This document shows, in pieces, positions 27,261-53,930 of a DNA stretch of 64,000 bases (the stretch's first letter is position 1; each line of letters begins with the position of its first letter). The stretch lies in the NCBI GenBank assembly GCA_035293105.1, contig DATDOV010000079.1, forward strand, positions 101,574-165,573, given 5' to 3'. The position numbers and the translations under genes are program-made. The notes under the pieces are model-generated. The model did no database searches and had not been told where the DNA came from. It saw only the letters and a list, made by a program, of their open reading frames with translations. Source of the stretch: Blastocatellia bacterium. GTDB lineage: Bacteria > Acidobacteriota > Blastocatellia > UBA7656.

Positions 27261-27455
27261 CGCCCATCGCAACGCGGGATCGGGGAGACGATGGAGTTGT
27301 GGCCGGGCGAATAACGAACTCAGGACACCAGTAGTCAGTCACGGTGATTGTGATCGAGCCCGCGCAAGATCGGCTAGTGAATCGCGTAGGGATCACCTGT
27401 ATCACGTGTCTATAGTCACCGGCTTCTTGTACAATACAAAGTCACGGAGGCAGAG

Positions 27456-27686
27456 ATGAGCATGAACCTCGAGGAACTAGAAACCGAGGCGCTACGCCTA
27501 GACCCGCAATCGCGCGCAAAACTAGCCGAACGGCTGTTGCACAGTCTGGACGATCTCTCGGATGAGGAGAACGAACGGCTGTGGGCCGAGGAGGCCCTGC
27601 GCCGCGAGGAGGAGATCGAGGCTGGCTTAGTCACGACGCGGCCAGCAGAGGAAGTGTACCGCGACGCACGGTCCAGGCTCAGATGA
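27456..27686 (+). CDS. addiction-module antitoxin (putative addiction module component family)
   Basis: MSMNLEELETEALRLDPQSRAKLAERLLHSLDD... typical of the small antitoxins paired with RelE/ParE-like toxins. Confidence 0.65.
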   Translation: MSMNLEELETEALRLDPQSRAKLAERLLHSLDDLSDEENERLWAEEALRREEEIEAGLVTTRPAEEVYRDARSRLR

Positions 27687-27907
27687 ACCGCCTACTGTCG
27701 TTCCATCCGGTGGCCGAGTACGAGCTATGCGAAGCGGCAGATTACTATGACCTTGAACGCCCAGGGCCAGGGAGAATCTTCCTTGATCAGGTAGAAAGTG
27801 CCACGAGCCAGATACTGCAATTTCCAGAAGCTGCGCTGGTTAATCGAGTCGGTCGCCGAGAGTTTCAGAGTGGGCGTTCGGATTTCCAAGAGCGAGGGCG
27901 TGACTAG
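27683..27907 (+). pseudogene. RelE/ParE-like toxin, C-terminally truncated remnant
   Basis: ATG overlaps the antitoxin stop (ATGA). N-terminal half (HPVAEYELCEAADYYDLERPGPGRIFLDQVESATSQILQFPEA) matches the toxin family. The C-terminal core (RRFPYGIIY...HGARD) is missing and the ORF ends early. Confidence 0.5.
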
Positions 27908-27930
27908 CTTTGGCTCTGTGAGGAGATGTC

Positions 27931-28192
27931 ATGCCGGAAATCAGCCGCTTTCTTGGCATCATCATCACGATGTATTTTAACGAGCACAACCCGCCGCATT
28001 TTCATGCACGCTACGGAGAACACAGGGCGGAGATCGCTATTCAAACCCTATCGATCATCGGCGGGAGGTTACCTCCCCGAGTGCTGGGGCTGGTTATGGA
28101 ATGGGCCGCTTTCGCATCGCGACGAACTAATGGAAGACTGGGAATTGGCCCGTCAGCAAACCGAGCTTAGACGGATTGCCCCACTGGAGTAA
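27931..28192 (+). pseudogene. DUF4160 protein with apparent frameshift
   Basis: N-terminus MPEISRFLGIIITMYFNEHNPPHFHARYGEH in one frame; family C-terminus ...HRDELMEDWELARQQTELRRIAPLE is in the +1 frame from about 28105. Confidence 0.55.
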
Positions 28193-28196
28193 ACCA

Positions 28197-28481
28197 ATGT
28201 TCCTTATCGACGTAGTAGATGTTAGGCCACTGGATGGTCATCAGCTTGAGCTAACGTTCAAGGACGGGCTGAAGGCCGTCGTGGATTTAGATCGGGTCAT
28301 TCGATCTTTCGAGGGAGTCTTCGCTCCGCTCAAAGATCCGGAGTATTTTCGACTGGTTCGTGTTGACACGGAGATTGGCACGATTGTCTGGCCCAACGGC
28401 GCTGACTTGTGCCCGGATGTGCTTTATTCCTATGCGTCCGGCAAGCCGATTATCGTGAACGGCGAGCGCGTCCTCAACTGA
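28197..28481 (+). CDS. DUF2442 protein (usual partner of DUF4160)
   Basis: MFLIDVVDVRPLDGHQLELTFKDG... about 95 aa. Confidence 0.6.
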   Translation: MFLIDVVDVRPLDGHQLELTFKDGLKAVVDLDRVIRSFEGVFAPLKDPEYFRLVRVDTEIGTIVWPNGADLCPDVLYSYASGKPIIVNGERVLN

Positions 28482-28874
28482 ATGAATCTGGGGACCTTTC
28501 GAGTGGGTTCGCCTCGCAAACCGGGCGACGGCTTGCGAGTCGGCACAGTGCGCTTTCTGCCGCGCGGAGTGAAGAAAGAAGACTACGCGCGACTGGACTA
28601 CTTCGACGTCTGGTTTCCGTTGCTGGCTCCAAGCTCGGAGCTGCTCAAGTGGCTGAAGAGCCGTGAGTGGCCAAGCGAGCAAGTGCGCTGGTCGAAGTTC
28701 AGAGAGCGCTACGTTGCCGAGATGAACAAGACCGACGCGCGTCAGGCTATCAAGCTTCTGGCAGAGCTAGCCAGAGCTACTTCGGTGAGCATAGGGTGTT
28801 ACTGTGAGGATGAGTCAGCCTGCCATCGCTCGACACTGCGGGCGTTGATAGAACGAGCCGCCATCTTGCCTTGA
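28482..28874 (+). CDS. DUF488 / YeaO-family protein (copy 1 of 3)
   Basis: ...RVGTVRFLPRGVKKEDYARLDYFDVWFPLLAPSSELLKW...GCYCEDESACHR aligns with E. coli YeaO ([36 protein letters not shown]). Confidence 0.75.
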   Translation: MNLGTFRVGSPRKPGDGLRVGTVRFLPRGVKKEDYARLDYFDVWFPLLAPSSELLKWLKSREWPSEQVRWSKFRERYVAEMNKTDARQAIKLLAELARATSVSIGCYCEDESACHRSTLRALIERAAILP

Positions 28875-28917
28875 GGAAGCTGGCCGCATGTCCTCAGCGG
28901 TGTATAATGAGCGAGCT

Positions 28918-29256
28918 ATGACAACCCTAGAGAATACTCAAGCCGTGCCCCTGACAGTCTGGGAAGACGGTTCGATTCGTGTCGCCGGCTCGCGGGTAAC
29001 GCTCGACTCGATTGTATATGAATTCAAGCTCGGCGCCACCGCGGAGCAGATCCTTCACAGCTTTCCGTCAGTTTCGTTGCGCGATATCTACGGCGCGATT
29101 TTCTATTACCTCAACAACACCGAGGTTGTCGAAGAGTACCTTGGTCACCGCGAACGGGGGGCGGAAGAGACGCGGTTGTTCATTGAGAGCCGCTTGGACA
29201 CGAGGTCCCTTCGCGAACGGATCCTGGCCAGGCGTGACCAGATGGTTGGCAGATAA
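28918..29256 (+). CDS. DUF433 protein (antitoxin-like partner of DUF5615)
   Basis: MTTLENTQAVPLTVWEDGSIRVAGSRVTLDSIVYEFKLGATAEQILHSFPSVSLRDIYGAIFYYL. Confidence 0.6.
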   Translation: MTTLENTQAVPLTVWEDGSIRVAGSRVTLDSIVYEFKLGATAEQILHSFPSVSLRDIYGAIFYYLNNTEVVEEYLGHRERGAEETRLFIESRLDTRSLRERILARRDQMVGR

Positions 29257-29286
29257 CGCGCGAGTCCGGCTACGCTTCGTGGCCTT

Positions 29287-29625
29287 CTGTTTGACGAAAA
29301 CTTCAATCATAGAATCGTACATGGGTTGCAATTGCGCCTGCCGGGTCTCGATTTCGTGATTGCTCAGGAAATAGAACTGAAGGGCGCCAAAGACCCGGAG
29401 TTGTTGGAGTGGGCCGCGACGCAGAACCGGGTCGTCGTCACGCATGACGTCGACACATTGTTGAAGTTCGCATACGAACGCATAGTTGGCGGCCAACTGA
29501 TGCCGGGCGTGATAGCCGTCCCACAGATCCTCCCGATAGGGCAAGCGATAGACGATCTGGCAACCGCCATCGAGTGCTCGGAGGCAAGCGATTTGGAGAA
29601 CTCAGTCTTGCACCTGCCTTTGTAA
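29287..29625 (+). CDS. DUF5615 (PIN-like) protein; start codon uncertain or non-canonical
   Basis: In-frame LLFDENFNHRIVHGLQLRLPGLDFVIAQE... begins right after the DUF433 stop. No ATG/GTG upstream; CTG at 29287 or TTG at 29326. Confidence 0.5.
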   Translation: MFDENFNHRIVHGLQLRLPGLDFVIAQEIELKGAKDPELLEWAATQNRVVVTHDVDTLLKFAYERIVGGQLMPGVIAVPQILPIGQAIDDLATAIECSEASDLENSVLHLPL

Positions 29626-29669
29626 CTGAAAGACGCGGGGACTGACTCGGGGCCGGCCTTGGATAAGAT

Positions 29670-29921
29670 ATGAAATACGAACTGTTCACCCGAGTCGCGC
29701 TGAATACCGATCTGCCGCGATACGGACTCCGCAGCGGGGACGTGGCAACGGTCATCGAGCACCATCCCGGACGGCCAGGCCAAGAGCCCGGCTACAGCCT
29801 TGAAGTGTCTAACGCGGTCGGGGAAACGGTCGCCGTGGTCACCGTCCGCGAGTCTCAGATCGTGCCGCTCAATGCCAACGAACCTTTGCATGTCCGCCTG
29901 CTGGCGGAAACGTCCCGCTGA
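29670..29921 (+). CDS. DUF4926 protein
   Basis: MKYELFTRVALNTDLPRYGLRSGDVATVIEHHP... 83 aa. Confidence 0.55.
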   Translation: MKYELFTRVALNTDLPRYGLRSGDVATVIEHHPGRPGQEPGYSLEVSNAVGETVAVVTVRESQIVPLNANEPLHVRLLAETSR

Positions 29922-29977
29922 TCGCTACCCGACGCGAATAGAACAGATGGACCGCGCCCGTCGGGGATCTGTTTAGG

Positions 29978-30382
29978 ATGCCGAGCTCCACGATAAATCT
30001 GGGAACGTTTCGAGTGGGCTCGCCTCGCAAGCGGGGCGAGGGCTTGCGAGTCGGCACAGTGCGCTTTCTGCCGCGCGGAGTGAAGAAAGAAGACTACGCG
30101 CGACTGGACTACTTCGACGTCTGGTTTCCGCTGCTGGCCCCAAGCTCGGAGTTGCTCCGATGGATGAAGAGCCGCGAGTGGCCAACCGAGCAAGTCAGGT
30201 GGTCGAAGTTCAGAGAGCGCTACACTGCCGAGATGAACAAGACCGCCGCCCGCCAGGCGATCAAGCTTCTGGCAGAGTTAGCCAGAGCGACGCCGTTGAG
30301 CATAGGGTGCTACTGCGAGACCGAGTCAGCCTGTCATCGCTCGATACTGCGTGAGTTGATTGAAAACGCGGCAGGCGAGTAG
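29978..30382 (+). CDS. DUF488 / YeaO-family protein (copy 2 of 3)
   Basis: About 90% nt identity to 28482-28874 over the whole gene. Confidence 0.75.
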   Translation: MPSSTINLGTFRVGSPRKRGEGLRVGTVRFLPRGVKKEDYARLDYFDVWFPLLAPSSELLRWMKSREWPTEQVRWSKFRERYTAEMNKTAARQAIKLLAELARATPLSIGCYCETESACHRSILRELIENAAGE

Positions 30383-30452
30383 GAGGGCTAGCCGTGCCGA
30401 TGAAGTCGCGGTTCAAGCGATGATATATCTGGACCATAACGAAGCAACTCGA

Positions 30453-30896
30453 TCATTTCACGTCGGCCGGAGAGACGGCAGTGATTCCTGGATAGCGCTT
30501 GAAGTCGGCTACGTTGAATGTAAGCAGATGCGTGATGCCATACACATTCATCGAAGCGACAAGCTTGGCATCGTGAACCTCAACGCCCATCACCGAGTGA
30601 GTTACAACAAGCCGCCGCCATTCCTGGAAGGTCGCTAGACTGTCCGGGAGCAAACGAAAGTAGCGTTCAATCAGACGCGCTTTTCGTTCTGTTTGAGTCA
30701 ATGAAAGGCTGAGCCCGCCGCGCGCCGAAGCCGGACGAGTACCGACGTTCCAGAACTCGCTCAGGACCTGTGGAGTGAAACAAAGAACTTCATTTCGCGA
30801 GCGGAGCCTTCGCAGAGCATCAAGAGCCATTTGGCGCTGCGGATCGTTGCGGTGGGCCAGCCGGAGAAACAGATTCGTATCGAAAAGATAGGCCAT
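30453..30896 (-). CDS. vapC: PIN-domain toxin (VapC-like)
   Basis: MAYLFDTNLFLRLAHRNDP... acidic PIN residues (D5, E, D, N/D). Confidence 0.75.
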   Translation of the reverse strand: MAYLFDTNLFLRLAHRNDPQRQMALDALRRLRSRNEVLCFTPQVLSEFWNVGTRPASARGGLSLSLTQTERKARLIERYFRLLPDSLATFQEWRRLVVTHSVMGVEVHDAKLVASMNVYGITHLLTFNVADFKRYPGITAVSPADVK

Positions 30897-31159
30897 CAGT
30901 CGTGGTCGAAGTAGATGTCGGCGCGCGAATAGCTCCCGGAGTAAGCTGGCAGATGCTCCGTTCCTTCGGCAAACGCTTGCATGTCCGCTTCAAACTCAGC
31001 GTCGTTCGCGGGAGCGGGCGCTGATAATTCATCAACTGATCGGGTTGCGCTGGCTTGCACAAGGCTCTCGACAAAGGACTTCACATCCAGGCCATACGCC
31101 TTAGCCCTTTGTTCCAAAATGTGTCTCACGTCTTCGGGAACTGAAATCGTTAATTCCAT
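30896..31159 (-). CDS. VapB-like antitoxin
   Basis: 87-aa ORF whose stop overlaps the vapC start. MELTISVPEDVRHILEQRAKAYGLDVKSFVESLV. Confidence 0.55.
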   Translation of the reverse strand: MELTISVPEDVRHILEQRAKAYGLDVKSFVESLVQASATRSVDELSAPAPANDAEFEADMQAFAEGTEHLPAYSGSYSRADIYFDHD

Positions 31160-31398
31160 TCGCGACTCTCTATCCGTTTCTCGATCCAGATTCCAAGTCC
31201 ACGTCTGTATCTATGAGTAGCGCATTGCTGTCGCGCCAGGATCTCCTTACTCATACAACGCGCCTCTTAGATTGGCAGCAGTATAGCACTCCGGTGACTA
31301 GCTGATAAGAGAGTACGATCAGACGCGTGCGCGTCACGATTTTGCGCGAGAAGGGAGGGACTGCTTGACCGTCGCAAAAAGTGCGTCACCCCAGAGTA

Positions 31399-31588
31399 TC
31401 TCATTAACACCTCACTTCAGTGAGGTGCCCTCGACCGAGCGGATCCCCCAACCGTTTCAACGGTTTCCTCTCTCGCAGTCGTCTTTCAAACTCGAAGTCT
31501 TCGGATTCCATGAGCGCAAACCGTTAAAACGGTTCAGGGGATCCGCCGAGCCAAGAGCACCTCACTGAAGTGAGGTGTTAATGAGAAC
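31399..31588. mobile_element. ~190-bp near-perfect palindromic MITE-like element
   Basis: Left end tctcattaacacctcacttcagtgaggtg and right end cacctcactgaagtgaggtgttaatgaga are reverse complements. Each end is itself a hairpin. Inner nested inverted repeats (gatcccccaaccgtttcaacggtt / aaccgttaaaacggttcaggggatcc). Confidence 0.6.
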
Positions 31589-31733
31589 CGATGTTCCCGC
31601 GAGCCTTGACGTCCCAGTTTTGATCACATCCCCAAACCGTGACGCGCACCCCGATCAGACGGCTCGGCCACGCAACCAAGTAGATGTTCGTAGTACCGGC
31701 TTCAGATGAAATCATGGCCTTGGCGTCGGCATA

Positions 31734-32048
31734 GTGCGCTTTCTGCCGCGCGGAGTGAAGAAAGAAGACTACGCGCGACTGGACTACTTCGACGTCTGGT
31801 TTCCGCTGCTGGCCCCAAGCGCTGAGTTGCTCACTTGGCTGAAGAGCCGCGAGTGGCCGAGCGAGCAAGTCAGATGGTCGAAGTTCAAAGAGCGCTACGT
31901 TGCCGAGATGAACAAGACCGACGCGCGGCAGGCTATCAAGCTTCTGGCCGAGTTAGCCAGAGCTACTCCGTTGAGCATAGGGTGTTACTGCGAGAACGAG
32001 TCAGCCTGTCATCGCTCTATGCTGCGTGAGTTGATCGAAGAGCCCTGA
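31734..32048 (+). pseudogene. DUF488 / YeaO-family protein (copy 3), 5'-truncated
   Basis: Homology to copies 1 and 2 starts at codon ~25 (RFLPRGVKKEDYARLDYFDVWFPLL...). First ~25 codons are replaced by unrelated sequence next to the palindromic element. Confidence 0.6.
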
Positions 32049-32136
32049 AGCTTTAGTGGGTCGTAGGATTGGTCCGACGCTTTCGCGATAATCTGCGATT
32101 TGAAGCAATCGAAAACTTGGGATAGGCTTACGTCCC

Positions 32137-33057
32137 ATGAAAAGCCTTGGTTCAGCCGGCAGCCTACCTTTGTTTGATGAATCTGCAGACGGCAACCCTC
32201 TTGAACATCAATCCGAGAAGCCCGAAAAGACTTCGCCCTTTAGCGACCTTGATCTGAATCGCTGGCGCGAATATGAAGACATCGTTACCGACTCGCTGTG
32301 GCTCATACCAGAACGGGACCGGACTGGCGCGCATCTCGCGGACTATCACGGAAACTTTGTTCCTCAAATCCCCTATCAGGCGATGCGGCGGTTTACGAAA
32401 CGCGGAGATGTTGTGCTCGACGCATTCTTGGGTTCCGGCACGACCCTCATCGAATGTCGCAGACTAGGGCGACACGGAATCGGCGTTGAGCTTAAGCCAG
32501 AGCTTGCAAAGCAAGCAGCCGACCGTATCGCGAGCCAAGGCAATCGCTACCAGGTCAAGACAGAGGTGCTGACGTCAGATAGTTGTGATCCCGTAAAGAC
32601 TCCTGGAGTCATTTCGCAGAGTCTTGAAACCATCGGCAAGGATTCAGTGCAGCTTGCAATACTTCATCCTCCGTATCATTCAATAATTAGGTTCTCTGAT
32701 CGTGCGGATGATCTGTCTAATTGCCCTACGGTTGACGTGTTTCAAAAAACGTTTGGCCGAGCGGTTGATGTAGTGACTCCATTCCTCGACATAGGCCGCT
32801 ATCTGGTCTTGGTCATCGGTGATATGTATGCTGGCAGCGAATGGATTCCTCTTGGATTTCGGTGCATGAACGAGATAATGGAGCGCGGGTACACTCTGAA
32901 GAGCATCGTCGTTAAAGATATGCAAGGAAATCGGGCTAAACGAAATCTGGAGAACATCTGGCGCTATCGCGCGCTAGTCGGCGGCTTCTACATCTTCAAG
33001 CACGAGTACGTCATGTTTTTCAGGAAGGGCAGAACGAATGGCCGAACTGCCATTTAG
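32137..33057 (+). CDS. N6-adenine or N4-cytosine DNA methyltransferase (R-M)
   Basis: Motif I VVLDAFLGSGTT; motif IV LHPPY (D/N/S-PP-Y variant). Confidence 0.8.
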   Translation: MKSLGSAGSLPLFDESADGNPLEHQSEKPEKTSPFSDLDLNRWREYEDIVTDSLWLIPERDRTGAHLADYHGNFVPQIPYQAMRRFTKRGDVVLDAFLGSGTTLIECRRLGRHGIGVELKPELAKQAADRIASQGNRYQVKTEVLTSDSCDPVKTPGVISQSLETIGKDSVQLAILHPPYHSIIRFSDRADDLSNCPTVDVFQKTFGRAVDVVTPFLDIGRYLVLVIGDMYAGSEWIPLGFRCMNEIMERGYTLKSIVVKDMQGNRAKRNLENIWRYRALVGGFYIFKHEYVMFFRKGRTNGRTAI

Positions 33058-33685
33058 TCAAGGCTCAAAGCTCCGTCAGACCTTTCAAATCCTCGCAGAT
33101 GGTAACTGGCATTGCGGCAAACATGAGTTGCCAGGAACGCAGCCTGCGAAGGCGATTCAGATCATCAGGCAGACCGGATACGAAGTAGAGAACAGGACGC
33201 AGCATTGCAATCGTTGCGACGAACGGACTGTCCACCGACGACTCGTTTCGACCAGCCCGTCGGCGAGCTCAGTGGCCCGGTCGGCGTTGCCGGAAAAGCT
33301 CAAGGGGCGTGTGAAGACGCTGTTCAAGAACATCGAGGCCATCACACAAAGAACCTACGAACCGAATCAGCTGGAGGTGGACCACCGTTTTCCGCAAGTA
33401 AGGTGGTCGAGCCCGGAGGCGATGAATGATCCGAACATGTCGGATGCTGATATCACTGCAAAGTTCCAGCTCCTTACACGGCAGCACAATCTATGGAAGA
33501 GTCGGTATTGTGAGGCATGTTTGAAAACTGGGCGTCGTGGGACCTATATCGGGATTGAGTACTTCTACGAAGGCGGCTTGATGTGGCCAGAGGACATTCA
33601 TCCAGACGACGAACGCGGCTGCATTGGTTGCTTTTGGTATGACCCTGAGAAATGGCGCCAGAGCCTGAACCAGCTTGTAAGCTAA
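33038..33685 (+). CDS. putative type II restriction endonuclease partner
   Basis: Overlaps MTase 3' end by 20 nt. Cys-rich (CGKH...CNRCDE...CEAC...CIGC) with an EVDHRFP HNH-like element. Confidence 0.45.
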   Translation: MAELPFSQGSKLRQTFQILADGNWHCGKHELPGTQPAKAIQIIRQTGYEVENRTQHCNRCDERTVHRRLVSTSPSASSVARSALPEKLKGRVKTLFKNIEAITQRTYEPNQLEVDHRFPQVRWSSPEAMNDPNMSDADITAKFQLLTRQHNLWKSRYCEACLKTGRRGTYIGIEYFYEGGLMWPEDIHPDDERGCIGCFWYDPEKWRQSLNQLVS

Positions 33686-33727
33686 CCTGCGCGGCCATCG
33701 GTGAAAGAGTACGAAACCCAAACCTGG

Positions 33728-34510
33728 TTATCCGAGGTCGCCGGGACGTACAGTCACTATAGTGAGAACGCGGTTGTAGTATGGCAATAGTATGGAGTCT
33801 TCCCACACCTTCCCAAAAACGTGTCCGGCTAGCCATGCCTCTGCACGTACGGCTCCGTCTTGCTCGCGCTCTTCCGTCGGGCGGAAGAGGTTGCTCGCGA
33901 GGGACTCGACGCTGACTTCAGTACCTTTGCGCTTGATGTAATGCTGGAATTGAGGGCCGGGTCTCCACCATTCAATTATCCCGCTGTCACTAACCACCAA
34001 AGCGCATTGTTCCTCAGTGACGTCGACGCACTTGACAGTAGCTGCGGTTAGCGAGGTCTGAAATTTCGCACTTATCTTTTTCGCGACCACCACGGTTGCT
34101 GACTCTTGTCGAACGATAGTGGCTGCTTGTGCCGATGGAATTAGCAATTCTGACGCGAACCGATTCGCGTCAATCTCGTGTTCTGGTGCGCCGCGGCTCC
34201 ACGATTCGACGTCGCGACTCTTACAAACGCAATCTAGCTCTCCGTGCCCCGGTAGAATGTAATGGCCGAGTTCGTGAGCGATCGTGAATCTCTTCCGGCC
34301 AGGCTCACGTATGGTCGCCTTAACAGCGACGATACCTGTCGGTTTGTTAGGAATACGAACCAACGCGCCTTCGAAACCCTCTGACTCGACCTCGCAAATC
34401 TCCAACCCGATTCTGTCCGCAAGCTCAGATAGATCGGGCGTCGTCGATATCTTGAATCGCCTTAAGAGCGCGCGAGCGAAGTCTTCAGGTTGTGCTGGTG
34501 TCCGATTCAC
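33728..34510 (-). CDS. ImmA/IrrE-family metallo-endopeptidase (COG2856, CapP-like)
   Basis: HEXXH (IAHELGHYIL) followed by EIDANRFASELLIP, the family signature E-x-N-x-F-A-x-x-L-L. Confidence 0.75.
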   Translation of the reverse strand: MNRTPAQPEDFARALLRRFKISTTPDLSELADRIGLEICEVESEGFEGALVRIPNKPTGIVAVKATIREPGRKRFTIAHELGHYILPGHGELDCVCKSRDVESWSRGAPEHEIDANRFASELLIPSAQAATIVRQESATVVVAKKISAKFQTSLTAATVKCVDVTEEQCALVVSDSGIIEWWRPGPQFQHYIKRKGTEVSVESLASNLFRPTEEREQDGAVRAEAWLAGHVFGKVWEDSILLPYYNRVLTIVTVRPGDLG

Positions 34511-34959
34511 TCTGACCCCGTATCGCCCTCGTCAAGCTTGCTTTTCAGCGAATCGAGGATTTCTTTGTCCTTGGAGGAGACCTTCTCGCCAAGCTTACGA
34601 CCGCGTAGCGAGGATACGGCCTCAGCGCCGGCAGAGGGCAGAGTCCCGCTCAACAGGTTAGCTAAGTAGCAGTCGGGGTCAACACCAGCAGACTCCGACT
34701 TCTTCTCTTCTGCACGCCGCAGATTCCTCAGAGCGTTCTCCACTGGGACCGGCACACTTTTGCTTTTCGACCTGAGTTCACGCACTCCAGCTTCGACTCT
34801 TGACATCAGCTTGGAAACCAGATCAGATGAATCAACACCACAAGCCTTAAGCACATCCTTGGCAGTTTCAAGATCAATCTCTTCGTCAGGCCCTAGTAAC
34901 GCCTCGAAGAGTTCATCTTCTTCGGTCTTTGGAAGTGGCTGGGTTCTTTTGTTAGGCAT
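34507..34959 (-). CDS. acidic low-complexity protein (candidate anti-sigma / peptidase substrate)
   Basis: 150 aa, highly charged. Translationally coupled on both sides: 14-nt gap to the upstream gene, 4-nt overlap with ImmA. Confidence 0.4.
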   Translation of the reverse strand: MPNKRTQPLPKTEEDELFEALLGPDEEIDLETAKDVLKACGVDSSDLVSKLMSRVEAGVRELRSKSKSVPVPVENALRNLRRAEEKKSESAGVDPDCYLANLLSGTLPSAGAEAVSSLRGRKLGEKVSSKDKEILDSLKSKLDEGDTGSE

Positions 34960-34973
34960 ACGCGGCCACCTTT

Positions 34974-35561
34974 CTAGTTACCCTTCTGCCGATACTTCAT
35001 CGATCCGGCACGGCGCCAGCCGGTAAGTCTCGTTCTCACTCTCCGCTGGCGGCCCCTCAGTTGCTGAGCGGTTATACCGAGGAACTCTGCAATTTCCTTT
35101 GGCTTTGCTGGCCACAACTCCAGAACCGCCTCAACATAATCCTCCAGTTCTTTCTCCCCTTTTACAAGAGCGTAGATTCTCGCCTTTGTGAGGGCATCGT
35201 GCTCAGCGTTCCCAAGGTCGTCCTCAAAGGCGTCGATTACCCTGAGAGCCTTCTCATGCTTTAGCGAGTCCAGAACGGTACTCCTCTTATACCCGCTGTG
35301 TTTCGTCACTATGTCCAGGAAATCACGCGTCATGACAGTCAGGAGCAACGGATATGGGTCTTCATCGTGTGTCTTGGGCCGCCATTCTACGCCTCTTTGG
35401 AATATGAAGGCTTCAACTGTCTCAACAGCAAAGTCTTCAGCGGATTTCCCAGACCCCGGTAGAACTGATAGCCCTTGACGGACGAATAGCCCTTCGGCAG
35501 CGGCATACAACCGACTTAGCAGGCCTTCCAGATCGACATTCGCGAAGCGTGAATCGTCCAT
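34974..35561 (-). CDS. divergent sigma-70-family (ECF-like) protein
   Basis: Region-2-like SAEDFAVETVEAFIFQR...DPYPLLLTVMTRDFLDIV and region-4-like HTH EIAEFLGITAQQLRGRQRRVRTRL. Confidence 0.45.
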   Translation of the reverse strand: MDDSRFANVDLEGLLSRLYAAAEGLFVRQGLSVLPGSGKSAEDFAVETVEAFIFQRGVEWRPKTHDEDPYPLLLTVMTRDFLDIVTKHSGYKRSTVLDSLKHEKALRVIDAFEDDLGNAEHDALTKARIYALVKGEKELEDYVEAVLELWPAKPKEIAEFLGITAQQLRGRQRRVRTRLTGWRRAGSMKYRQKGN

Positions 35562-35820
35562 TCCGGGACCTCTTCATTCTTAAAGCGAGTCAGGGTCTAG
35601 GAACTGGCAAGAAATCTGTCATCAAGAAATTTTTCTGCCAGTTTTAGCCGACACAGTCGCTTAGACAGTGGAGGTTGGCACCGGCCGATTAGCCGTCATC
35701 TAACAAGAGGCATGCTAACCCACGGAAAGGGCTAAGAGGAAGATCAACCAGACACGGACGATCTGCTTGGACGATCTGCTTGGCCACGACAGCAACCGAA
35801 CCTGAAGGGAGTTATCAACA
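35562..35820. promoter_or_regulatory. divergent control region between sigma/ImmA operon and Ubl operon
   Basis: Inverted repeat AACTGGCAAGAAAT-N13-ATTTTTCTGCCAGTT. GGAACT -35-like element. Tandem 14-mer gacgatctgcttgg x2. Confidence 0.45.
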
Positions 35821-36852
35821 ATGAGCAACAAAACCGATTCAACGGCTGTTGACGATCTCGTCGACGGCCAGTGGCTTGAAGATATCGATGCGGCGCTGCC
35901 TCAGGCGGTCGCCGAGGCCACAGTAGATGGACGGCTGCCCGCGAAAGCTCAACACCTGAAAGTTCAGGTTGGGTTTCGCGAATTGCCGGACGGGCACGAG
36001 GTCAAGTTCAAGGCCTCACTTACGAATACACTGCTGGAAGTGTTCGAATGGGCAGCGCAGGAACTCGGGAAACCTCTACTACCTCCCGCCAGCAACCAGC
36101 CGCTCGATCTATTGCGCTGTCGGGAGCGACACGGCGACGGCTGGAGCGAGCCTATCACAGGCCTCGACCGGCCGCTCTGGCTCGTGTTGGTTGAAAGCTG
36201 CTCTCGACATTTCGGAATCGAATATGTGCTGGCTGTTAAGATCAACACGAAGTGGGCCGTAGCACCGTCCGCAAAAATGACGCCGCGCGAGCTGCTCACT
36301 AGCTTTGGGTTTGATCCCTCTCAATTCAGCCTGTACAAGCCCGATAGCACGGAGCCGCTGCCGGCGGACACGCCGATCCCTCTTCATCGAGGAGAGAGGT
36401 TTGAAGCGCAGAAGGACGGGAAGTATGGAGCGTCGGTGATGGCAGAGCGTCCGGCGCGCGGCTCACAGACGATCGACGATGATCTGGAAGGAATAAGGGA
36501 GGCGGGTATCGACGCCCGCCTCCTCGACTCCAACGGACAAAAGTACGCCGAGGTGAAGGGAATAGCGGTACCGTCGCCTCCTTGGTCTCTGGACAGGCTC
36601 ACACTGCTGTTCGCTATTCCGGCTACGTACCCGACAGGCGGGCTCGACGCGTTCTACATCGAGTTGCCCGTTAGCCACGCTAGCGGTTCCGTTCCGTACC
36701 AATCTCAGACCGCGCAGATCGATGGCAGATCGTGGGGGCTGATCTCATGGCACTATCCGACCGGGCGGCCCTGGAACCCGTCGCATGACGATCTTTCTAC
36801 TCATATCGAGCATTGTCGTGGAGCATTGATGAGGCGTGGGGTGACGCAGTGA
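35821..36852 (+). CDS. multi-ubiquitin (tandem beta-grasp) domains fused to prokaryotic E2-like (UBC-fold) domain
   Basis: Two Ub-like repeats (HLKVQVGFRELPDGHEVKFKASLTNTLLEVFEWAAQELG; LAVKINTKWAVAPSAKMTPRELLTSFGFDPSQFSLYKPDS...IPLHRGERFEA). C-terminal E2-like region (...LLFAIPATYPTGGLDAFYIELPV...ISWHYPTGRPWNPSHDDL...). Confidence 0.55.
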   Translation: MSNKTDSTAVDDLVDGQWLEDIDAALPQAVAEATVDGRLPAKAQHLKVQVGFRELPDGHEVKFKASLTNTLLEVFEWAAQELGKPLLPPASNQPLDLLRCRERHGDGWSEPITGLDRPLWLVLVESCSRHFGIEYVLAVKINTKWAVAPSAKMTPRELLTSFGFDPSQFSLYKPDSTEPLPADTPIPLHRGERFEAQKDGKYGASVMAERPARGSQTIDDDLEGIREAGIDARLLDSNGQKYAEVKGIAVPSPPWSLDRLTLLFAIPATYPTGGLDAFYIELPVSHASGSVPYQSQTAQIDGRSWGLISWHYPTGRPWNPSHDDLSTHIEHCRGALMRRGVTQ

Positions 36853-36854
36853 AA

Positions 36855-38246
36855 ATGCGAATGACCGAACACCACTACCATGAGGTAAAGCGACTTACGT
36901 CTCCTTCCTTCTTGGATGGCATCCGGTTTCCTCCCGAGACAGGTTGCATCGTTTTAGTCGGGCGGAATAATCATCCAACGTATCCGTCAGTCGTAGTGGC
37001 CGATGTGCTGGCGCCCGAGGACGGAGAGTTGATTGAGCGAGAGAGTGATGGTCTCGTCTTCGCGAGCAAGTATTTGCGGCGCGCTCTGTTTCGATTGCGT
37101 GAGAAAGGGCTGGCGGGCTTCCTCACAGTCCACACCCACCCGTTCTCGGACACGCGTGTGAACTTTTCTCCCTATGATGACGCGAATGATCCCTCGCTGA
37201 TGGCAAATCTGTACGAGCTTGAGCCCCACGGCATTTTCGGCAGCATCGTGATGGGCAAAAGATCGGCGAGAGCTCGATTGTGGAATCCGGACGGAGATGG
37301 CTACCGCACACTCGAACCGATGATCATCGTCGGTGAGCGACTGCAATTCTTCAACGCTAATGGTGCCGAGGCCGAGGCGGAACCACAGGCAGCGGAGATC
37401 TTCGACCGCGGCTTGTCGATCACAGGTAGCGGCGCGTTAGCGCGACTCGCCTGCATGCGTGTTGGTCTGATCGGCAGCAGCGGAACCGGCTCTATTATGG
37501 CCGAATTGCTGATGCGCGCCGGTGTTGGCGAGATACTGCTTTTTGAGCCTGACTATGTGGAAGAACCCAACCTGAACCGGATGCTCCATTCCCGGCAGCG
37601 CGACGCGGAAGCTCGTGTAGGAAAGGCGTCCCGGCTGGCTGAAGCTCTTGCCGAGGCTGGTATGCCCACTCAGATCACGGTCGCCTCGGGCGGTGACATA
37701 CGCCGCGAGGAGGTAGCACTTGAGCTACGAGGTTGCGATTTGGTGATTGGTTGTGTTGATCGAGACTGGCCGCGCCTAATACTTTGCGAACTAGCTTATC
37801 AATACTTGATTCCGTACATAGACCTGGGAACAGAGATCGGTTTCGATGGGATTGAGATTCAGAGCCTCGATTCTCGCGTTTCGTATGTTGCGCCTGGTCG
37901 TCCTTGTCTTCTGTGTTCTGGCGTGGTGTCAACCGAGCGCCTTAGGCTGGAAGCACTAGAAGACAGCGAGCGAGACAGAGTTATCGCAATGGGTTACTCG
38001 GAAGACATTAGGCTCATCGCGCCTGCGGTCATGGATCTAAACATGCGCGCTGCCTCTTATGCGATGCTCGTTGTACGTCATCTCCTCCAGCCGTTCCTCG
38101 ATAGGCCGCTGCCGACTCATATCAAAGAATCAATCACTAACTTCAGTGTTCGACGAGTGACCAGTACCCAGAATTCGGACTGTCACGTCTGTGATGGTTC
38201 GAGGCTTGGAGTCGGAGACGCGCGCCGTTTGTCCACGGCTCGTTGA
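36855..38246 (+). CDS. JAB/MPN metalloprotease domain fused to E1-like ThiF/MoeB adenylyltransferase
   Basis: N-terminal JAMM-like motif LAGFLTVHTHPFSD...S..D. C-terminal Rossmann GLIGSSGTGSIMAELLMRAGVGEILLFEPDYVEEPNLNRM with CLLCSG and CHVCDG zinc pairs. Start immediately after the upstream stop. Confidence 0.7.
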   Translation: MRMTEHHYHEVKRLTSPSFLDGIRFPPETGCIVLVGRNNHPTYPSVVVADVLAPEDGELIERESDGLVFASKYLRRALFRLREKGLAGFLTVHTHPFSDTRVNFSPYDDANDPSLMANLYELEPHGIFGSIVMGKRSARARLWNPDGDGYRTLEPMIIVGERLQFFNANGAEAEAEPQAAEIFDRGLSITGSGALARLACMRVGLIGSSGTGSIMAELLMRAGVGEILLFEPDYVEEPNLNRMLHSRQRDAEARVGKASRLAEALAEAGMPTQITVASGGDIRREEVALELRGCDLVIGCVDRDWPRLILCELAYQYLIPYIDLGTEIGFDGIEIQSLDSRVSYVAPGRPCLLCSGVVSTERLRLEALEDSERDRVIAMGYSEDIRLIAPAVMDLNMRAASYAMLVVRHLLQPFLDRPLPTHIKESITNFSVRRVTSTQNSDCHVCDGSRLGVGDARRLSTAR

Positions 38247-38719
38247 TCGTTCTGACTGACTGGAACGCCAATCTTGGGCACGCAGACACGCCGCCGCCAT
38301 ACCCTTTGATCATCCTAATCCAGAACCCAGACGCCGCTTTCGCGAATTGCATCGTACATCGCGTCTGGTGCAAGATCACCACCGTTCGGCCACTGCACCA
38401 CACCCATAACCACTCGCGCTCCGGCAAATACGGCGGCTCGCGTAGCGGCTCGAACACTGTGCCGTCGATCTCAGAGCTGCTGAGAAACGCTCGCATATCT
38501 ACGTTCCCCGGCGTGCCATCGCCGAATCTTACGTGCAATTCCGGGAACGCAAAGACGCGAGAATCTCTAAGATCGCCAAGTGTGCTACCGCTTCAGTCCG
38601 TCACTAGAGGCTCGCGGCGGATTGTTCAGACATAGCCTACAACCAGAGAGACATCTCTCTTCGATTCGCGCTTCTATTCCTACCTTTGTGTTACAATCTC
38701 GCGAAAGGAGCGGAGCCAA

Positions 38720-38953
38720 ATCATTTCCGAGCAAGCCGAGAAAATCCTCGAACAGGCTTTGCAGTTGCCTTCCTCGCAACGCGCAGACCTGGTCGAGCGT
38801 TTGTTGGACAGTCTTGCGTTCGAAACTGACGAACGCATCGATGCGCTGTGGGCTGCCGAGGCCGAGAGTCGCATAGCTGCTTTTCGCCGGGGCGAGTTGT
38901 CGGCGGTACCGTCAGAAGACGTCTTTGCTGAGATCGAAGCGGAGGCTAATTGA
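38720..38953 (+). CDS. addiction-module antitoxin; probable non-ATG (ATC/ATT) start
   Basis: IISEQAEKILEQALQLPSSQRADLVERLLDSLAFETDERIDALWAAE... AAGGAG sits 9 nt upstream of ATC at 38720. First canonical start is an internal TTG at 38759. Confidence 0.5.
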   Translation: MISEQAEKILEQALQLPSSQRADLVERLLDSLAFETDERIDALWAAEAESRIAAFRRGELSAVPSEDVFAEIEAEAN

Positions 38954-39240
38954 AGGTTCAATTCCTCGAACCGGCCAAAGCCGAGTTGAAGGAAGCAGTC
39001 CGCTACTACAACCACCAGAGAGAAGGTCTCGGGCTCGAATTCGCCGCTGAAGTCAGAAAGGCAACTCAGCGAATCGCGAAGCTGCCGAAGGCCTCGCCAC
39101 CAATCTCAGGTGGCGCTAGAAGGTTTCTTCTTCGCAGGTTCCCTTACGGAATCATTTTATCTGGTCGAAGACAAAACGGTGCTTATTGTTGCTGTAATGC
39201 ATCTAGCGCGCGATCCTGTAGTCTGGCAGGAACGGCTGAA
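38950..39240 (+). pseudogene. RelE/ParE-family toxin with +1 frameshift
   Basis: KVQFLEPAKAELKEAVRYYNHQ...RRFLLRRFPYGI, then the conserved tail IYLVEDKTVLIVAVMHLARDPVVWQERLK is in another frame (shift at a T-run near 39160). Confidence 0.6.
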
Positions 39241-39412
39241 GTGACTCGATTATCGTGGCTAGGCTCCGCACCCGCCTCACGATCGAGCTTCCAGTCAAGG
39301 CTAGCGCTCAAAGGCACGGTCGTGGGCCGACTGCTTTGGTTCATGTGGTTCGTCCAACTCCGTGTAGCCACACAGAGCCGAGTCGAGTATACTCGCCAGC
39401 AAGGAGTAGGTC

Positions 39413-39664
39413 ATGACAACGATGTTTCCCATACCTCCGCCGGGGTTTGACCAGCTTTCAGTAGACGAGCAGATCCACTTCGTCGAGTCGCTGTGGGACC
39501 GAATCGCAGTGCATGCCGAACGGGTGCCGGTTCCCGACTGGCATCGCCACGTGCTCGCCGAAAGACTCGCCGCGTATGAGAGCGATCCCGACGCAGGTAA
39601 GCCGTGGGAGGAGGTCCGGGACGAACTCCAGCGAGAACTCCGAGACATTGATCGCCGGAAATGA
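39413..39664 (+). CDS. addiction-module antitoxin
   Basis: MTTMFPIPPPGFDQLSVDEQIHFVESLWDRIAV...DWHRHVLAERLAAYESDP. Confidence 0.6.
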   Translation: MTTMFPIPPPGFDQLSVDEQIHFVESLWDRIAVHAERVPVPDWHRHVLAERLAAYESDPDAGKPWEEVRDELQRELRDIDRRK

Positions 39665-39946
39665 CCAAACAGCGCGTGATCATCCGGCCCGAGGCGCAGC
39701 AGGACCTCCGCGAGGCGGCGCTGTGGTATGAGACTCCCAGGCCGGGCCTCGGAGAGCGTTTCGCAACCAAGATCGAGGGGTTGATCGAGCGAATAGCCGA
39801 CAAAGCCTCGCCAATTCCCTGAGATCGCCCACGGAGTCCGCCGGGCTTGGCTACAGGCATTTCCGTATTCGGTTTACTTCGTCGAATCTCCCGGCACCGT
39901 TTCGCTCATCGCCATTCTTCACCAGCATCGCCACCCCGATACCTGA
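39661..39946 (+). pseudogene. RelE/ParE-family toxin with frameshift
   Basis: MTKQRVIIRPEAQQDLREAALWYE... stops after ...ASPIP. Conserved tail QFPEIAHGVRRAWLQAFPYSVYFVESPGTVSLIAILHQHRHP continues in another frame. Confidence 0.55.
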
Positions 39947-40074
39947 AGCAAATAGACGATCATTATTCACTGGTTGAAACTGGTTGATTATCCACTGACC
40001 CTGGCAGATAATCCGCCACTTGACCGGTGCATGAGAAGCTAGAGGCAGACCGACGTTGCTCTAAACTAGGGGAT

Positions 40075-53919: not shown

Positions 53920-53930
53920 GAAGAATCTCG

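What the first reader, a model, noticed from the sequence alone, without database searches (positions are those of the whole stretch)
28482..32048. Three near-identical DUF488/YeaO paralogs, each the 3' member of a different small module
DUF488 copies at 28482-28874 and 29978-30382 are about 90% identical at the DNA level. A 5'-truncated third copy lies at 31734-32048. Each follows a different upstream unit: antitoxin/ParE + DUF4160/DUF2442; DUF433/DUF5615/DUF4926; and (inverted) VapBC + palindromic MITE. The repeated, recently duplicated gene acting as a module boundary resembles a cassette array or recombination hotspot. It also hints that DUF488, whose function is unknown, is functionally linked to TA-like modules. 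The identical stretch cttgcgagtcggcacagtgcgctttctgccgcgcggagtgaagaaagaagactacgcgcgactggactacttcgacgtctggtttcc is shared by all three copies.
Basis: seen in the sequence. Interest (0 to 1): 0.65.

Follow-up and report, generated by a model that had tools for sequence, protein, structure and literature searches.

The report
DUF488 repeats mark toxin-antitoxin hotspot
Three diverged copies of a small conserved enzyme gene (DUF488) lie between toxin-antitoxin modules in a soil acidobacterium; relatives show they are different alleles brought together by recombination at an ordinary gene-insertion hotspot, not a recent duplication, a cassette system or a new toxin partner.

Summary
The three DUF488 copies are real and lie at the stated coordinates. 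The same array was assembled independently in two other samples.

They are not near-identical. They share 87-91% of nucleotides, with dS 0.23-0.37. Downstream of one conserved 73-nt stretch, each copy is closer to DUF488 genes of other Blastocatellia genomes than to its neighbours. Bootstrap support for the three forming one group is 1%.

In about 140 related loci DUF488 is a single-copy gene. In the closest clade it sits between an acyl-CoA dehydrogenase and an amidohydrolase near dnaA. There it is surrounded by a changing set of toxin-antitoxin (TA) modules, including the same DUF4160-DUF2442 and DUF433-DUF5615 units, on either side and in either orientation. Outside that clade it has no TA neighbours.

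In the window the array lies in a low-GC TA/defence island (27.3-42.0 kb) with no recombinase and no attC-like sites.

Two other genomes repeat the pattern 'full DUF488, inverted TA pair, 5'-truncated DUF488', again with 86-90% identical copies.

Best reading: a hypervariable TA hotspot where the conserved DUF488 sequence serves as a homology patch for recombinational gain and loss of modules. This resembles the 'insertion with long target duplication' described for restriction-modification genes. A functional DUF488-TA link is unsupported but not excluded.

The parts
27300..42003 (.). Low-GC accessory island of toxin-antitoxin (TA) modules and defence genes that holds the DUF488 array. It lies between the ornithine cyclodeaminase gene (26295-27260) and the B12-radical-SAM gene (42046-43554, minus strand).
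   Evidence: GC is 0.56 against 0.618 in the flanks. No integrase and no flanking direct repeats were found.
27456..27686 (+). Antitoxin-like gene (Unstab_antitox / TIGR02574).
   Evidence: Pfam 43.7 bits; NCBIfam.
27683..27907 (+). It is probably a truncated toxin remnant.
   Evidence: No hit in Pfam or NCBIfam.
27931..28170 (+). DUF4160, the toxin half of a dhiTA-type pair.
   Evidence: Pfam 66.9 bits. 90% aa identity to the gene at the same position in L004. The pair was shown to be a TA system in Dickeya (PMC8198452).
28176..28481 (+). DUF2442, the antitoxin half. Its stop codon abuts the ATG of DUF488 copy A.
   Evidence: Pfam 59.7 bits. The unit 27917-28862 is 82-83% identical in nt to L004, L072 and L076.
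28482..28874 (+). DUF488 copy A, full length (130 aa). Its last ~18 nt plus the 12-nt spacer are an alternative native DUF488 3' end. The same sequence survives as a relic upstream of DUF433 in L008 and L015.
28888..29256 (+). DUF433 antitoxin-like gene. The likely true start is the ATG at 28918, preceded by a TATAAT box.
   Evidence: Pfam. 28859-29922 is 88% identical to L015.
29272..29625 (+). DUF5615 (PIN-like / Mut7-C) toxin gene whose ATG is mutated to ACG. It is probably inactive.
29670..29921 (+). DUF4926, a small gene that moves on its own in other genomes.
   Evidence: Pfam 58.4 bits. Its position varies in L019, L067, L072 and L148.
29978..30382 (+). DUF488 copy B, full length (134 aa), with the typical N-terminal extension and the typical 3' end.
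30453..31159 (-). VapC (PIN, 30453-30896) and a small VapB-like ORF (30896-31159), convergent with copy B.
   Evidence: Pfam PIN and TIGR00028. The VapB-like ORF has no family hit.
31399..31586 (.). 188-nt hairpin-forming palindrome. Outer 16-nt inverted arms lie at 31327-31342 and 31634-31649.
   Evidence: It is single copy.
31652..31715 (.). Junction sequence joined to the truncated copy. It is shared with locus L092.
   Evidence: Window 31652-32039 matches L092 532-930 at 88%.
31716..32048 (+). DUF488 copy C, 5'-truncated. The only available start is the GTG at 31734. It lacks the invariant residues R12, G17, R19 and G21.
28547..28619 (+). 73-nt stretch identical in all three copies (also 30058-30130 and 31733-31805). 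It is the most conserved segment of the gene family and the likeliest crossover or gene-conversion tract.
32137..33685 (+). Type II restriction-modification pair directly downstream of copy C: an N6/N4 methyltransferase and a weakly ICEA-like nuclease.
38299..38557 (-). Remnant of a DUF2442 gene. In relatives this gene lies just downstream of DUF488.
   Evidence: blastn matches to L005, L067, L071, L072, L078 and L103.
41385..42003 (-). ParE-Phd TA pair. In L013, L064, L065 and L070 its homologue starts 20-30 nt after the DUF488 stop.

Best explanation
The three genes are three diverged alleles of one conserved gene. That gene, DUF488-N3a, encodes a small enzyme with a protein-tyrosine-phosphatase (PTP)-like fold and a cysteine/arginine motif.

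In this Blastocatellia clade the gene normally exists once. It sits in the middle of a hypervariable stretch where selfish toxin-antitoxin (TA) and defence modules accumulate and decay.

The gene stays 85-92% identical between lineages while everything around it changes. It also contains a ~70-90-nt run that is the longest perfectly matching segment between alleles. It therefore acts as a portable homology patch.

Under this model, DNA from relatives that carries 'module + DUF488' recombines through that patch. The route would be single-crossover (Campbell-type) or homology-anchored illegitimate integration. The result adds the module and leaves an extra full or 5'-truncated DUF488 copy as a long direct repeat.

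Later deletions, gene conversion and mutational decay would give the present mosaic: a truncated copy C, a tail junction in A, a start-less DUF5615 and a stub of ParE.

Shown here: the copies are heteroallelic; the units exist as alternative states in other genomes; the locus is a TA hotspot; the architecture recurs; no recombinase is present.

Inferred: the recombination route itself, and that DUF488 is a bystander rather than a working partner of the modules.
For: Divergence of the copies. They are 87-91% identical with dS 0.23-0.37 and dN/dS 0.15-0.29. Over the 236 nt downstream of the shared stretch, each copy's nearest relatives are in other genomes. Copy C is 92.4% identical to L008 against 89.4% to B. 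Copy A is 88.6% identical to L015 and L008 against 85-87% to its paralogues. Monophyly of A+B+C has 1.3% bootstrap support. All three fall in one 90%-identity cluster of 177 proteins.

Copy number elsewhere. DUF488 is single copy within +-10 kb in 57 genome loci and in 78 of 79 metagenome loci.

Canonical locus. In the close clade the order is ACAD, variable region, DUF488, variable region, amidohydrolase, ParBA, atpDC, dnaA.

The window's upstream units exist elsewhere as alternative states in front of a single DUF488:
- DUF4160-DUF2442-DUF488 in L004, L072 and L076, with partial versions in L093 and L095.
- DUF433-DUF5615 (with or without DUF4926) in L015, L067, L078 and L008.

Hotspot content. 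Within 1.5 kb of DUF488 in 41 clade loci there are at least 8 TA families: DUF2442 7, DUF433 5, RHH 5, MNT 5, PIN at least 5, HepT/HEPN 4, PSK_trans_fac 4, DUF5615 3.

Relics of DUF488. A ~20-nt 3'-tail relic lies upstream of DUF433 in L008 and L015 (alignment score 47 against a shuffle maximum of 30). 5'-truncated copies occur in L092, L093 and L144.

Recurring architecture. 'Full DUF488, inverted TA operon, 5'-truncated DUF488' recurs in L093 and L144 with different TA genes and 86-90% identical copies.

The 73-nt stretch. It holds the longest identical run in 61 of 105 allele pairs although it is 19% of the gene. It is 100% identical among the window copies, against 92% among close external alleles. 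L092, the counterpart of copy C, differs from C at 6 of 73 positions there.

No dedicated machinery. There is no integrase, transposase or attC-like structure.

Island composition. Island GC (0.56) matches the relatives' loci (0.52-0.60), not the window's flanks (0.618).
Against: - No recombination intermediate or empty site in a near-isogenic strain was seen, so the route is inferred.
- The window array is not at the canonical ACAD/amidohydrolase locus. The rest of this genome could not be read.
- Three independent 5' junctions fall within about 20 nt, at codons 15, 17 and 21-22. That could point to a site-specific process.
- In-situ duplication followed by allelic replacement of each copy would give the same non-monophyly.
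- The DUF2442 stop abuts the DUF488 A start. The trio DUF4160-DUF2442-DUF488 is conserved as a block at 82-83% nt identity in at least 3 genomes. A DUF488-DUF4160-DUF2442 arrangement also occurs in distant relatives with 53% identity (L042, L126). All of this fits co-transcription as well.
Confidence: 0.55

Rival explanations
1. In-situ tandem duplication. DUF488 was duplicated twice within this lineage, for example as a long target duplication made when the modules inserted. The copies then diverged or were overwritten piecemeal by recombination with DNA from relatives.
For: The copies form a direct-repeat array with regular 1.5-1.7 kb spacing. A perfect 73-nt tract is shared by all three. 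Restriction-modification insertions flanked by 46-423-bp target duplications without mobility genes are documented (PMC2853133).
Against: dS is 0.23-0.37. There is no flank homology. Each copy is closer to alleles in other genomes, and monophyly has 1.3% support. Copy C has dN/dS 0.15-0.29, not about 1 as expected for a pseudogene diverging in place. The two other arrays also have 86-90% identical copies, and none is young.
Confidence: 0.15
2. Functional link. DUF488-N3a is a working third component of the adjacent TA-like modules. For example, it could be a phosphatase that processes RNA or DNA ends made by the RNase toxins, or it could modulate toxin activity. On this reading each copy serves its own module.
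For: DUF488 is on the same strand as the upstream module with tight spacing, and the DUF2442 stop abuts the ATG of copy A. The trio is conserved as a block in L004, L072 and L076. DUF488 adjoins DUF4160-DUF2442 in distant relatives L042 and L126. The fold is PTP-like with an invariant C..C..CHR motif. From memory, Burroughs & Aravind 2023 (NAR Genom Bioinform lqad029; not held in the library) predict that this clade acts on RNA or DNA termini in conflict systems.
Against: There is no conserved neighbour across 57 loci of many phyla, and TA families are rare there. Within the clade several loci have ACAD directly followed by DUF488 (L001, L009, L012). Modules of at least 8 unrelated families lie upstream or downstream in either orientation. 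DUF488 alleles do not cluster by upstream module: A is closer to the DUF433-linked L015 and L008 than to the DUF2442-linked L004. There is no real PADLOC hit.
Confidence: 0.1
3. Site-specific mobile element. A recombinase encoded elsewhere inserts TA cassettes at an attachment site in the 5' part of DUF488, around codons 15-22. The element carries the rest of the gene, much as elements that target tRNA genes do.
For: Three independent 5' junctions lie within about 20 nt, just upstream of the most conserved stretch. The layout 'full copy, insert, displaced 5'-truncated copy' is what such integration produces.
Against: No integrase, transposase or relaxase lies in or beside any of the three arrays. 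There are no inverted repeats or conserved sequence at the element ends. The A/DUF433 junction lies in the 3' tail, not at that site. The clustering of junctions is also expected if only fragments that retain the 73-nt high-identity patch can recombine.
Confidence: 0.07
4. Assembly artefact. The repeats were collapsed or mis-joined in a metagenome-assembled genome.
For: The source is a MAG contig, and repeats invite mis-assembly.
Against: Identical order and junctions occur in two further, independently assembled samples (L141, L142). The copies differ at about 10% of sites, and the longest identical run (87-90 nt) is shorter than the k-mer suggested by the contig names (k141).
Confidence: 0.02

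Closest known systems
Insertion with long target duplication of restriction-modification gene complexes (Nobusato et al. 2000, from memory; Furuta, Abe & Kobayashi 2010, PMC2853133, read)
   Same: A selfish, addiction-type gene complex sits between long direct repeats (here 321-372 nt; there 46-423 bp). The repeated sequence is single copy in related genomes. No transposase or integrase is present. A restriction-modification pair directly follows copy C here, and Vsr/Dcm genes follow the truncated copy in L144.
   Different: The inserts between the repeats are TA modules, not restriction-modification genes. The repeats are only 86-91% identical, and each is closer to alleles in other genomes. 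In the published cases left and right repeats are 93-99% identical and closer to each other than to the empty target.
Chromosomal hotspots of horizontal gene transfer flanked by core genes, and TA/defence islands (general concept, e.g. Oliveira et al. 2017, from memory)
   Same: There is a fixed chromosomal interval (ACAD to amidohydrolase, near dnaA) whose content differs in nearly every genome and is dominated by TA and defence genes. GC is deviant. Modules are decaying.
   Different: A conserved gene lies inside the variable interval and is itself duplicated, truncated and left as relics. In the window the whole block sits at a different chromosomal position.
Integron gene-cassette arrays
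   Same: There is a series of small modules, mostly in one orientation, separated by a recurring sequence.
   Different: There is no IntI integrase and no attC hairpins. The recurring sequence is a protein-coding gene under purifying selection. The junctions are not at a fixed site. One module is inverted.
[quoted passage not shown]
   Same: Strong profile match. Invariant Cys/His/Arg motif. The predicted fold is closest to PTP and dual-specificity phosphatases and to RapZ-C.
   Different: No biochemical activity is known for any member. Copy C lacks the first strand and four invariant residues.
dhiTA (DUF4160/DUF2442) type II TA of Dickeya dadantii (PMC8198452; PMC12065111)
   Same: Same two Pfam families, same order, small adjacent genes.
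   Different: In Dickeya it is a two-gene system with no DUF488. Toxicity of the window pair is untested.

Membership tests
DUF488-N3a (Pfam PF22751 / PF04343) | Profile match above the curated cut-off | tested here: met
   A 127.8 bits, B 126.8 bits and C 103.9 bits, against a cut-off of 27.
DUF488-N3a (Pfam PF22751 / PF04343) | Conserved 'active' motif (G-C-x-C-x2-E-x2-C-H-R) and N-terminal R/G residues | tested here: met
   G105 C106 C108 E111 C114 H115 R116 and R12 G17 R19 G21 are invariant in 38 sequences. A and B have all of them. C lacks the N-terminal four.
DUF488-N3a (Pfam PF22751 / PF04343) | Rhodanese/PTP-type Rossmannoid fold | tested here: met
DUF488-N3a (Pfam PF22751 / PF04343) | Enzymatic activity or substrate | not testable with these tools
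   No characterised member was found in the library.
Integron cassette array | IntI tyrosine recombinase next to the array | tested here: not met
   No recombinase family appears among the genes of 22-48 kb.
Integron cassette array | attC imperfect inverted repeat at each cassette boundary | tested here: not met
   The only inverted repeat is the 188-nt palindrome at 31399-31586. Nothing lies at the A/DUF433, DUF4926/B or B/VapC boundaries.
Insertion with long target duplication (Furuta et al. 2010) | Insert flanked by direct repeats longer than 30 bp of a sequence that is single copy in genomes without the insert | tested here: met
   The repeats are 321-372 nt. DUF488 is single copy in about 135 other loci.
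Insertion with long target duplication (Furuta et al. 2010) | No mobility genes in or beside the insert | tested here: met
Insertion with long target duplication (Furuta et al. 2010) | The two repeats are nearly identical and closer to each other than to the empty target | tested here: not met
   The repeats are 87-91% identical, and each is closer to alleles in other genomes.
Insertion with long target duplication (Furuta et al. 2010) | Insert contains restriction and modification genes | tested here: not met
   The inserts between the repeats are TA modules. The restriction-modification pair lies outside, after copy C.
Type II toxin-antitoxin modules | Adjacent small genes of a known toxin family and a known antitoxin family | tested here: met
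   DUF4160/DUF2442, DUF433/DUF5615 and PIN plus a small upstream ORF. The Unstab_antitox gene has no recognisable toxin partner.
Type II toxin-antitoxin modules | Toxicity and neutralisation | not testable with these tools
   Shown experimentally only for a Dickeya DUF4160/DUF2442 homologue (PMC8198452). In the window, DUF5615 has lost its start codon.
MITE | Terminal inverted repeats, small size, non-coding | tested here: met
   50-nt arms that are 88% complementary, 188 nt in total.
MITE | Multiple dispersed copies | tested here: not met
   Single copy in the 64 kb window and in about 2 Mb of related loci. The whole genome was not available.

The most novel reading that the evidence does not exclude
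DUF488-N3a is not a bystander. On this reading it is a nucleic-acid-end phosphatase that works with whichever RNase-type toxin module sits beside it (PIN, DUF5615, HepT, DUF4160), for example by healing or marking the RNA ends they produce. That would explain why TA modules of many families collect around it and why module-plus-DUF488 units travel together. A related version is that DUF488 is the target and homology arm of a recombinase-free way for TA cassettes to spread.
Probability: 0.1. Interest if true: 0.65.

Novelty: new variant of a known kind. Interest (0 to 1): 0.3.

Why it matters
If the recombinational reading holds, a conserved gene inside a variable region can act as the 'handle' by which addiction modules are added to a chromosome without any recombinase. 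The trace it leaves is a pair or series of long direct repeats that are different alleles rather than identical copies. That would extend the 'long target duplication' idea from restriction-modification genes to toxin-antitoxin modules.

It also carries a warning. Repeated co-location of an uncharacterised gene with toxin-antitoxin modules in one clade can reflect a hotspot rather than a shared function.

For DUF488 itself, the result narrows its role only slightly. It has a PTP-like fold and a conserved Cys/Arg motif, and it is a core-like single-copy gene near the origin in this clade.

Tried and rejected
- Integron or attC reading: no integrase, no boundary hairpins.
- Integrase at 42046-43554: it is a B12-binding radical SAM enzyme.
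- tRNA-linked island: no tRNA genes in the window.
- DUF488 fragment at the far end of the island as an attR: none found.
- Promoter and terminator scan of 27.2-32.3 kb: no more hits than in shuffles.
- Rfam on 25.9-32.3 kb: only spurious microRNA-hairpin hits on the palindrome, below gathering score.
- PDB sequence search with DUF488: no hit. Foldseek against PDB: nothing below E 0.4.
- PADLOC: only a sub-threshold hit for DUF488.
- Literature: 'DUF488' and 'YeaO' papers give no function. Hits in the SGNH review were for DUF4886. The key classification paper (lqad029 / PMC10034599) is not held.
- Short DUF488 ORFs (99-112 aa) in the protein database looked like many more 5' truncations. DNA of L145-L148 shows full-length homology, so they are start-calling or frameshift artefacts. 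Only three junction classes are real.
- Gene conversion as the sole cause of the identical stretch: the stretch is also the most conserved part family-wide, so both factors contribute.
- My simple ORF pickers often chose the wrong strand in these GC-rich loci. Neighbour counts are therefore minimum counts from redundant candidate sets.

Full report
**1. What is there**

ORF listing, repeat finding and alignment confirm three DUF488 genes in direct orientation.
- Copy A is 28482-28874 (130 aa).
- Copy B is 29978-30382 (134 aa).
- Copy C is 5'-truncated. DNA homology begins at about 31716, just after an in-frame TGA at 31707-31709. The only possible start is the GTG at 31734 (104 aa).

All three match Pfam PF22751 'DUF488-N3a' far above its cut-off. 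No fourth copy or fragment exists in the 64 kb window.

Homology is confined to the coding sequence. It starts at A's ATG and ends a few codons before the stops, and the flanks do not align.

By blastn, A-B is 89.2% identical, B-C 91.4% and A-C 90.7%. On codon alignments dS is 0.37, 0.23 and 0.35, and dN/dS is 0.22, 0.29 and 0.15. The copies are therefore similar but not near-identical.

Copy C has 5 mismatches. What all three share is 73 nt: 28547-28619, 30058-30130 and 31733-31805.

The window comes from a Blastocatellia MAG contig of 222,906 nt, where all three genes are annotated 'DUF488 family protein'. Independent assemblies from two other samples show the same order and junctions. L141 is identical apart from a 45-nt gap, and L142 has 8 mismatches in 6.2 kb. 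The array is therefore not an assembly artefact.

**2. The modules**

The DUF2442 stop abuts A's ATG.
- Between A and B lie DUF433, DUF5615 (PIN-like) and DUF4926. The DUF5615 gene has lost its ATG (ATG to ACG relative to L015).
- Between B and C, on the other strand, lie a PIN/VapC gene and a small VapB-like ORF. They are followed by a 188-nt hairpin-forming palindrome that is single copy wherever I could look.
- DUF4160/DUF2442 is an experimentally supported toxin-antitoxin (TA) pair in Dickeya (dhiTA; PMC8198452; PMC12065111).
- DUF433 with a PIN-like partner is a predicted TA pair (Makarova et al. 2009, from memory).

**3. The surroundings in the window**

GC falls from 0.618 to about 0.56 between 27.3 and 42.0 kb. 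Besides the array, that stretch holds:
- a type II methyltransferase/nuclease pair (32137-33685);
- an ImmA/IrrE peptidase and two unknown ORFs;
- a Prok-E2_E gene and a JAB/ThiF-E1 fusion;
- a DUF2442 remnant and another Unstab_antitox gene;
- RhuM and a ParE-Phd pair.

There is no integrase, transposase, tRNA gene or flanking direct repeat. It is an accessory island of TA modules and defence genes between an ornithine cyclodeaminase gene and a B12-radical-SAM gene.

**4. Are the copies recent duplicates? No.**

A protein search found 533 homologues. The best, from Blastocatellia MAGs and soil metagenomes, are 83-91% identical to A, which is the same range as B and C.

I compared the nucleotide sequences of 13 genome loci. 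Over the 236 nt downstream of the shared stretch, each window copy is as close or closer to genes in other genomes than to its neighbours:
- C: L008 92.4% and L015 91.9%, against B 89.4% and A 87.3%.
- A: L015 and L008 88.6%, against C 87.3% and B 85.2%.
- B: L007 89.4%, equal to C at 89.4%.

A clade of A+B+C appears in 1.3% of bootstrap trees. The low dN/dS of the truncated copy also fits divergence as a working gene in another lineage rather than decay in place.

**5. What DUF488 looks like elsewhere**

In 57 genome loci and 79 metagenome loci, DUF488 is single copy within +-10 kb, with one exception among those sets (L093). A further array (L144) turned up through a protein hit.

In the close clade (at least 75% aa identity) the gene has a fixed address: acyl-CoA dehydrogenase, variable region, DUF488, variable region, amidohydrolase, ParB, ParA, atpD, atpC, dnaA. 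Some genomes have nothing between ACAD and DUF488 (L001, L009, L012).

Others have exactly the units seen in the window:
- DUF4160-DUF2442-DUF488 in L004, L072 and L076, at 82-83% nt identity to window 27917-28862. L093 and L095 are partial versions.
- DUF433-DUF5615 with or without DUF4926 in L015 (88% over 1065 nt), L067, L078 and, partially, L008.

The same families also occur downstream of DUF488 and on the opposite strand (L005, L011, L019, L065, L148). Other neighbours include RHH-PIN, HepT/HEPN-MNT, ParE-Phd, a HigB-like ORF (by eye, L093), PemK, Rv0623-like and FRP-like genes.

Sequences that in relatives lie right after DUF488 are found in the window at 38.3-38.6 kb (DUF2442, minus strand) and at 41.6-41.8 kb (ParE-Phd). 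The whole 28.4-42 kb stretch therefore looks like an expanded version of the same variable neighbourhood.

Outside the clade no neighbour is conserved and TA families are rare: RHH 2, HEPN 3 and HTH_3 3 among about 200 candidate ORFs. The TA association is thus a property of this locus in this clade, not of the DUF488 family.

**6. Junctions and relics**

- A's last ~18 nt and the next 12 nt (GCCGCCATCTTGCCTTGAGGAAGCTGG) are a natural alternative DUF488 3' end, seen in L143 and L062 at the canonical locus. The same sequence survives as a ~20-nt relic in front of DUF433 in L008 and L015, which have no DUF488 there. So the DUF433 unit once sat behind a DUF488 gene in their ancestors too.
- Copy C and the 64 nt before it (31652-31715) are shared with L092 (88%), where a 10-nt difference gives the truncated gene a new ATG.
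- L093 and L144 each have a full DUF488, then an inverted TA operon, then a 5'-truncated DUF488. In L093 the operon is HEPN-MNT plus PIN. In L144 it is HepT-MNT, and Vsr/Dcm genes follow the truncated copy. This is the layout of B, VapCB, C and the restriction-modification pair in the window.
- The three junction classes lie at about codons 15, 17 and 21-22. The paired copies are 86-90% identical.
- Many shorter DUF488 ORFs in the protein database are gene-calling artefacts, not truncations.

**7. The 73-nt stretch**

Family-wide, this is the most conserved part of the gene: 92.2% pairwise identity among ten close alleles, against 85.9% downstream. It is not invariant, since 15 of 24 third-codon positions vary among those alleles.

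It contains the longest perfectly identical run in 61 of 105 allele pairs while making up 19% of the gene. The median longest run is 27 nt.

Perfect identity among all three window copies is more than this background predicts: roughly 10^-3 to 10^-5 by my estimate. L092, the counterpart of copy C, differs from C at 6 of 73 positions there. In L093 and L144 the paired copies are only 85-90% identical in the stretch.

I read this as the preferred crossover or conversion tract, homogenised within this genome. The junction clustering just upstream of it is expected if only fragments that keep this patch can recombine. That removes the need for a site-specific enzyme, though it does not exclude one.

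**8. What the protein is**

The invariant residues are R12, G17, R19, G21 and the motif G105-C106-x-C108-x2-E111-x2-C114-H115-R116, which follows a strand and precedes a helix as in a phosphatase P-loop.

[quoted passage not shown] That clade has predicted activities on sugar phosphates of nucleotides and nucleic-acid ends (Burroughs & Aravind 2023). The paper could not be read here. A sister family, DUF4326, is described that way in PMC9503650.

Copy C lacks the first strand and four invariant residues and is probably inactive.

**9. Most likely explanation and rivals**

- Best (0.55): three heteroallelic copies assembled by recombination at a TA hotspot, with DUF488 as the homology patch. 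The route would be Campbell-type integration of fragments carrying a whole or 5'-truncated DUF488, or homology-anchored illegitimate joining. An example of the latter is the 6-nt GCCGCC overlap at the A/DUF433 junction. Conversion, deletion and decay would follow.
- In-situ duplication with later overwriting (0.15).
- A true functional partnership of DUF488 with the modules (0.10).
- A site-specific element whose recombinase lies elsewhere (0.07).
- Mis-assembly (0.02).

**10. Comparison with known systems**

The nearest described phenomenon is the 'insertion with long target duplication' of restriction-modification genes (PMC2853133). It shares the long direct repeats of a single-copy target, the selfish cargo and the absence of mobility genes. 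It differs in cargo (TA modules) and in that the repeats here are diverged alleles. Two of its four defining features are not met, so I do not file the array as a member.

It is not an integron. More generally, it is an instance of a horizontal-transfer hotspot and TA/defence island.

**11. Verdict**

It is worth a note but is not a surprise.

Noticed in passing
window 26089-26222; also 4075-4182 and 53841-53923: A 45-nt unit is repeated three times in tandem between the phosphatase and ornithine cyclodeaminase genes. The same population in another sample (L141) has one unit fewer. Related copies are dispersed in the window. It looks like a REP-like intergenic repeat with copy-number variation.
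   Followed up: partly
window 31399-31586 (outer arms 31327-31342 and 31634-31649): A 188-nt near-perfect palindrome (DNA fold -64.7 kcal/mol, z -12) lies between the VapB promoter side and the truncated DUF488. It is single copy in the window and in about 2 Mb of related loci, so it is not demonstrably a MITE. Its only Rfam hits are spurious microRNA models.
   Followed up: partly
window 33728-38246: The block holds an ImmA/IrrE peptidase, two ORFs with no family (34507-34959 and 34974-35561, minus strand), a 343-aa Prok-E2_E protein and a 477-aa JAB/ThiF-E1 fusion. It is a possible ubiquitin-like conjugation defence module. PADLOC gives only weak E1-E2 hits.
   Followed up: partly
window 32137-33685: An N6/N4 DNA methyltransferase overlaps by 20 nt a 215-aa ORF with only a weak ICEA-like match. 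This is probably a type II restriction-modification pair, placed directly after the truncated DUF488. In L144, Vsr/Dcm genes follow the truncated copy in the same way.
   Followed up: partly
window 29272-29325 against L015 8286: The DUF5615 (PIN-like) toxin gene has ACG where relatives have the ATG start. The ORF called 'ParE' (27683-27907) is a 74-aa stub with no family hit. Several modules in the array appear to be decaying.
   Followed up: yes
related loci, e.g. L144 4491-4832, L015 9226-9549, L013 9553-9870: A small gene matching Pfam FRP (fluorescence recovery protein, PF18032) is the most frequent neighbour of DUF488 in the Blastocatellia clade (13 hits among 41 loci), usually directly upstream. 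It is absent from the window.
   Followed up: no
L015 about 10120-10150; L019 about 400; L101 about 10230-10270: The DUF488 genes of these MAGs carry single-base frameshifts. They are either pseudogenes or consensus errors.
   Followed up: no
window 38950-39664 and 41385-42003: There are further TA-like pairs in the island. One is a ParE/RelE-like ORF that runs on into unrelated sequence, next to a second Unstab_antitox gene. The other is an intact ParE-Phd pair next to the island's right edge.
   Followed up: partly
window 31578-31715 minus strand; L092 489-623 minus strand: A conserved minus-strand peptide start (MISS.A.T.N.Y.VAWPS) begins exactly at the junction with the truncated DUF488 in both genomes. 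It is probably the stub of the first gene of the original insert.
   Followed up: no
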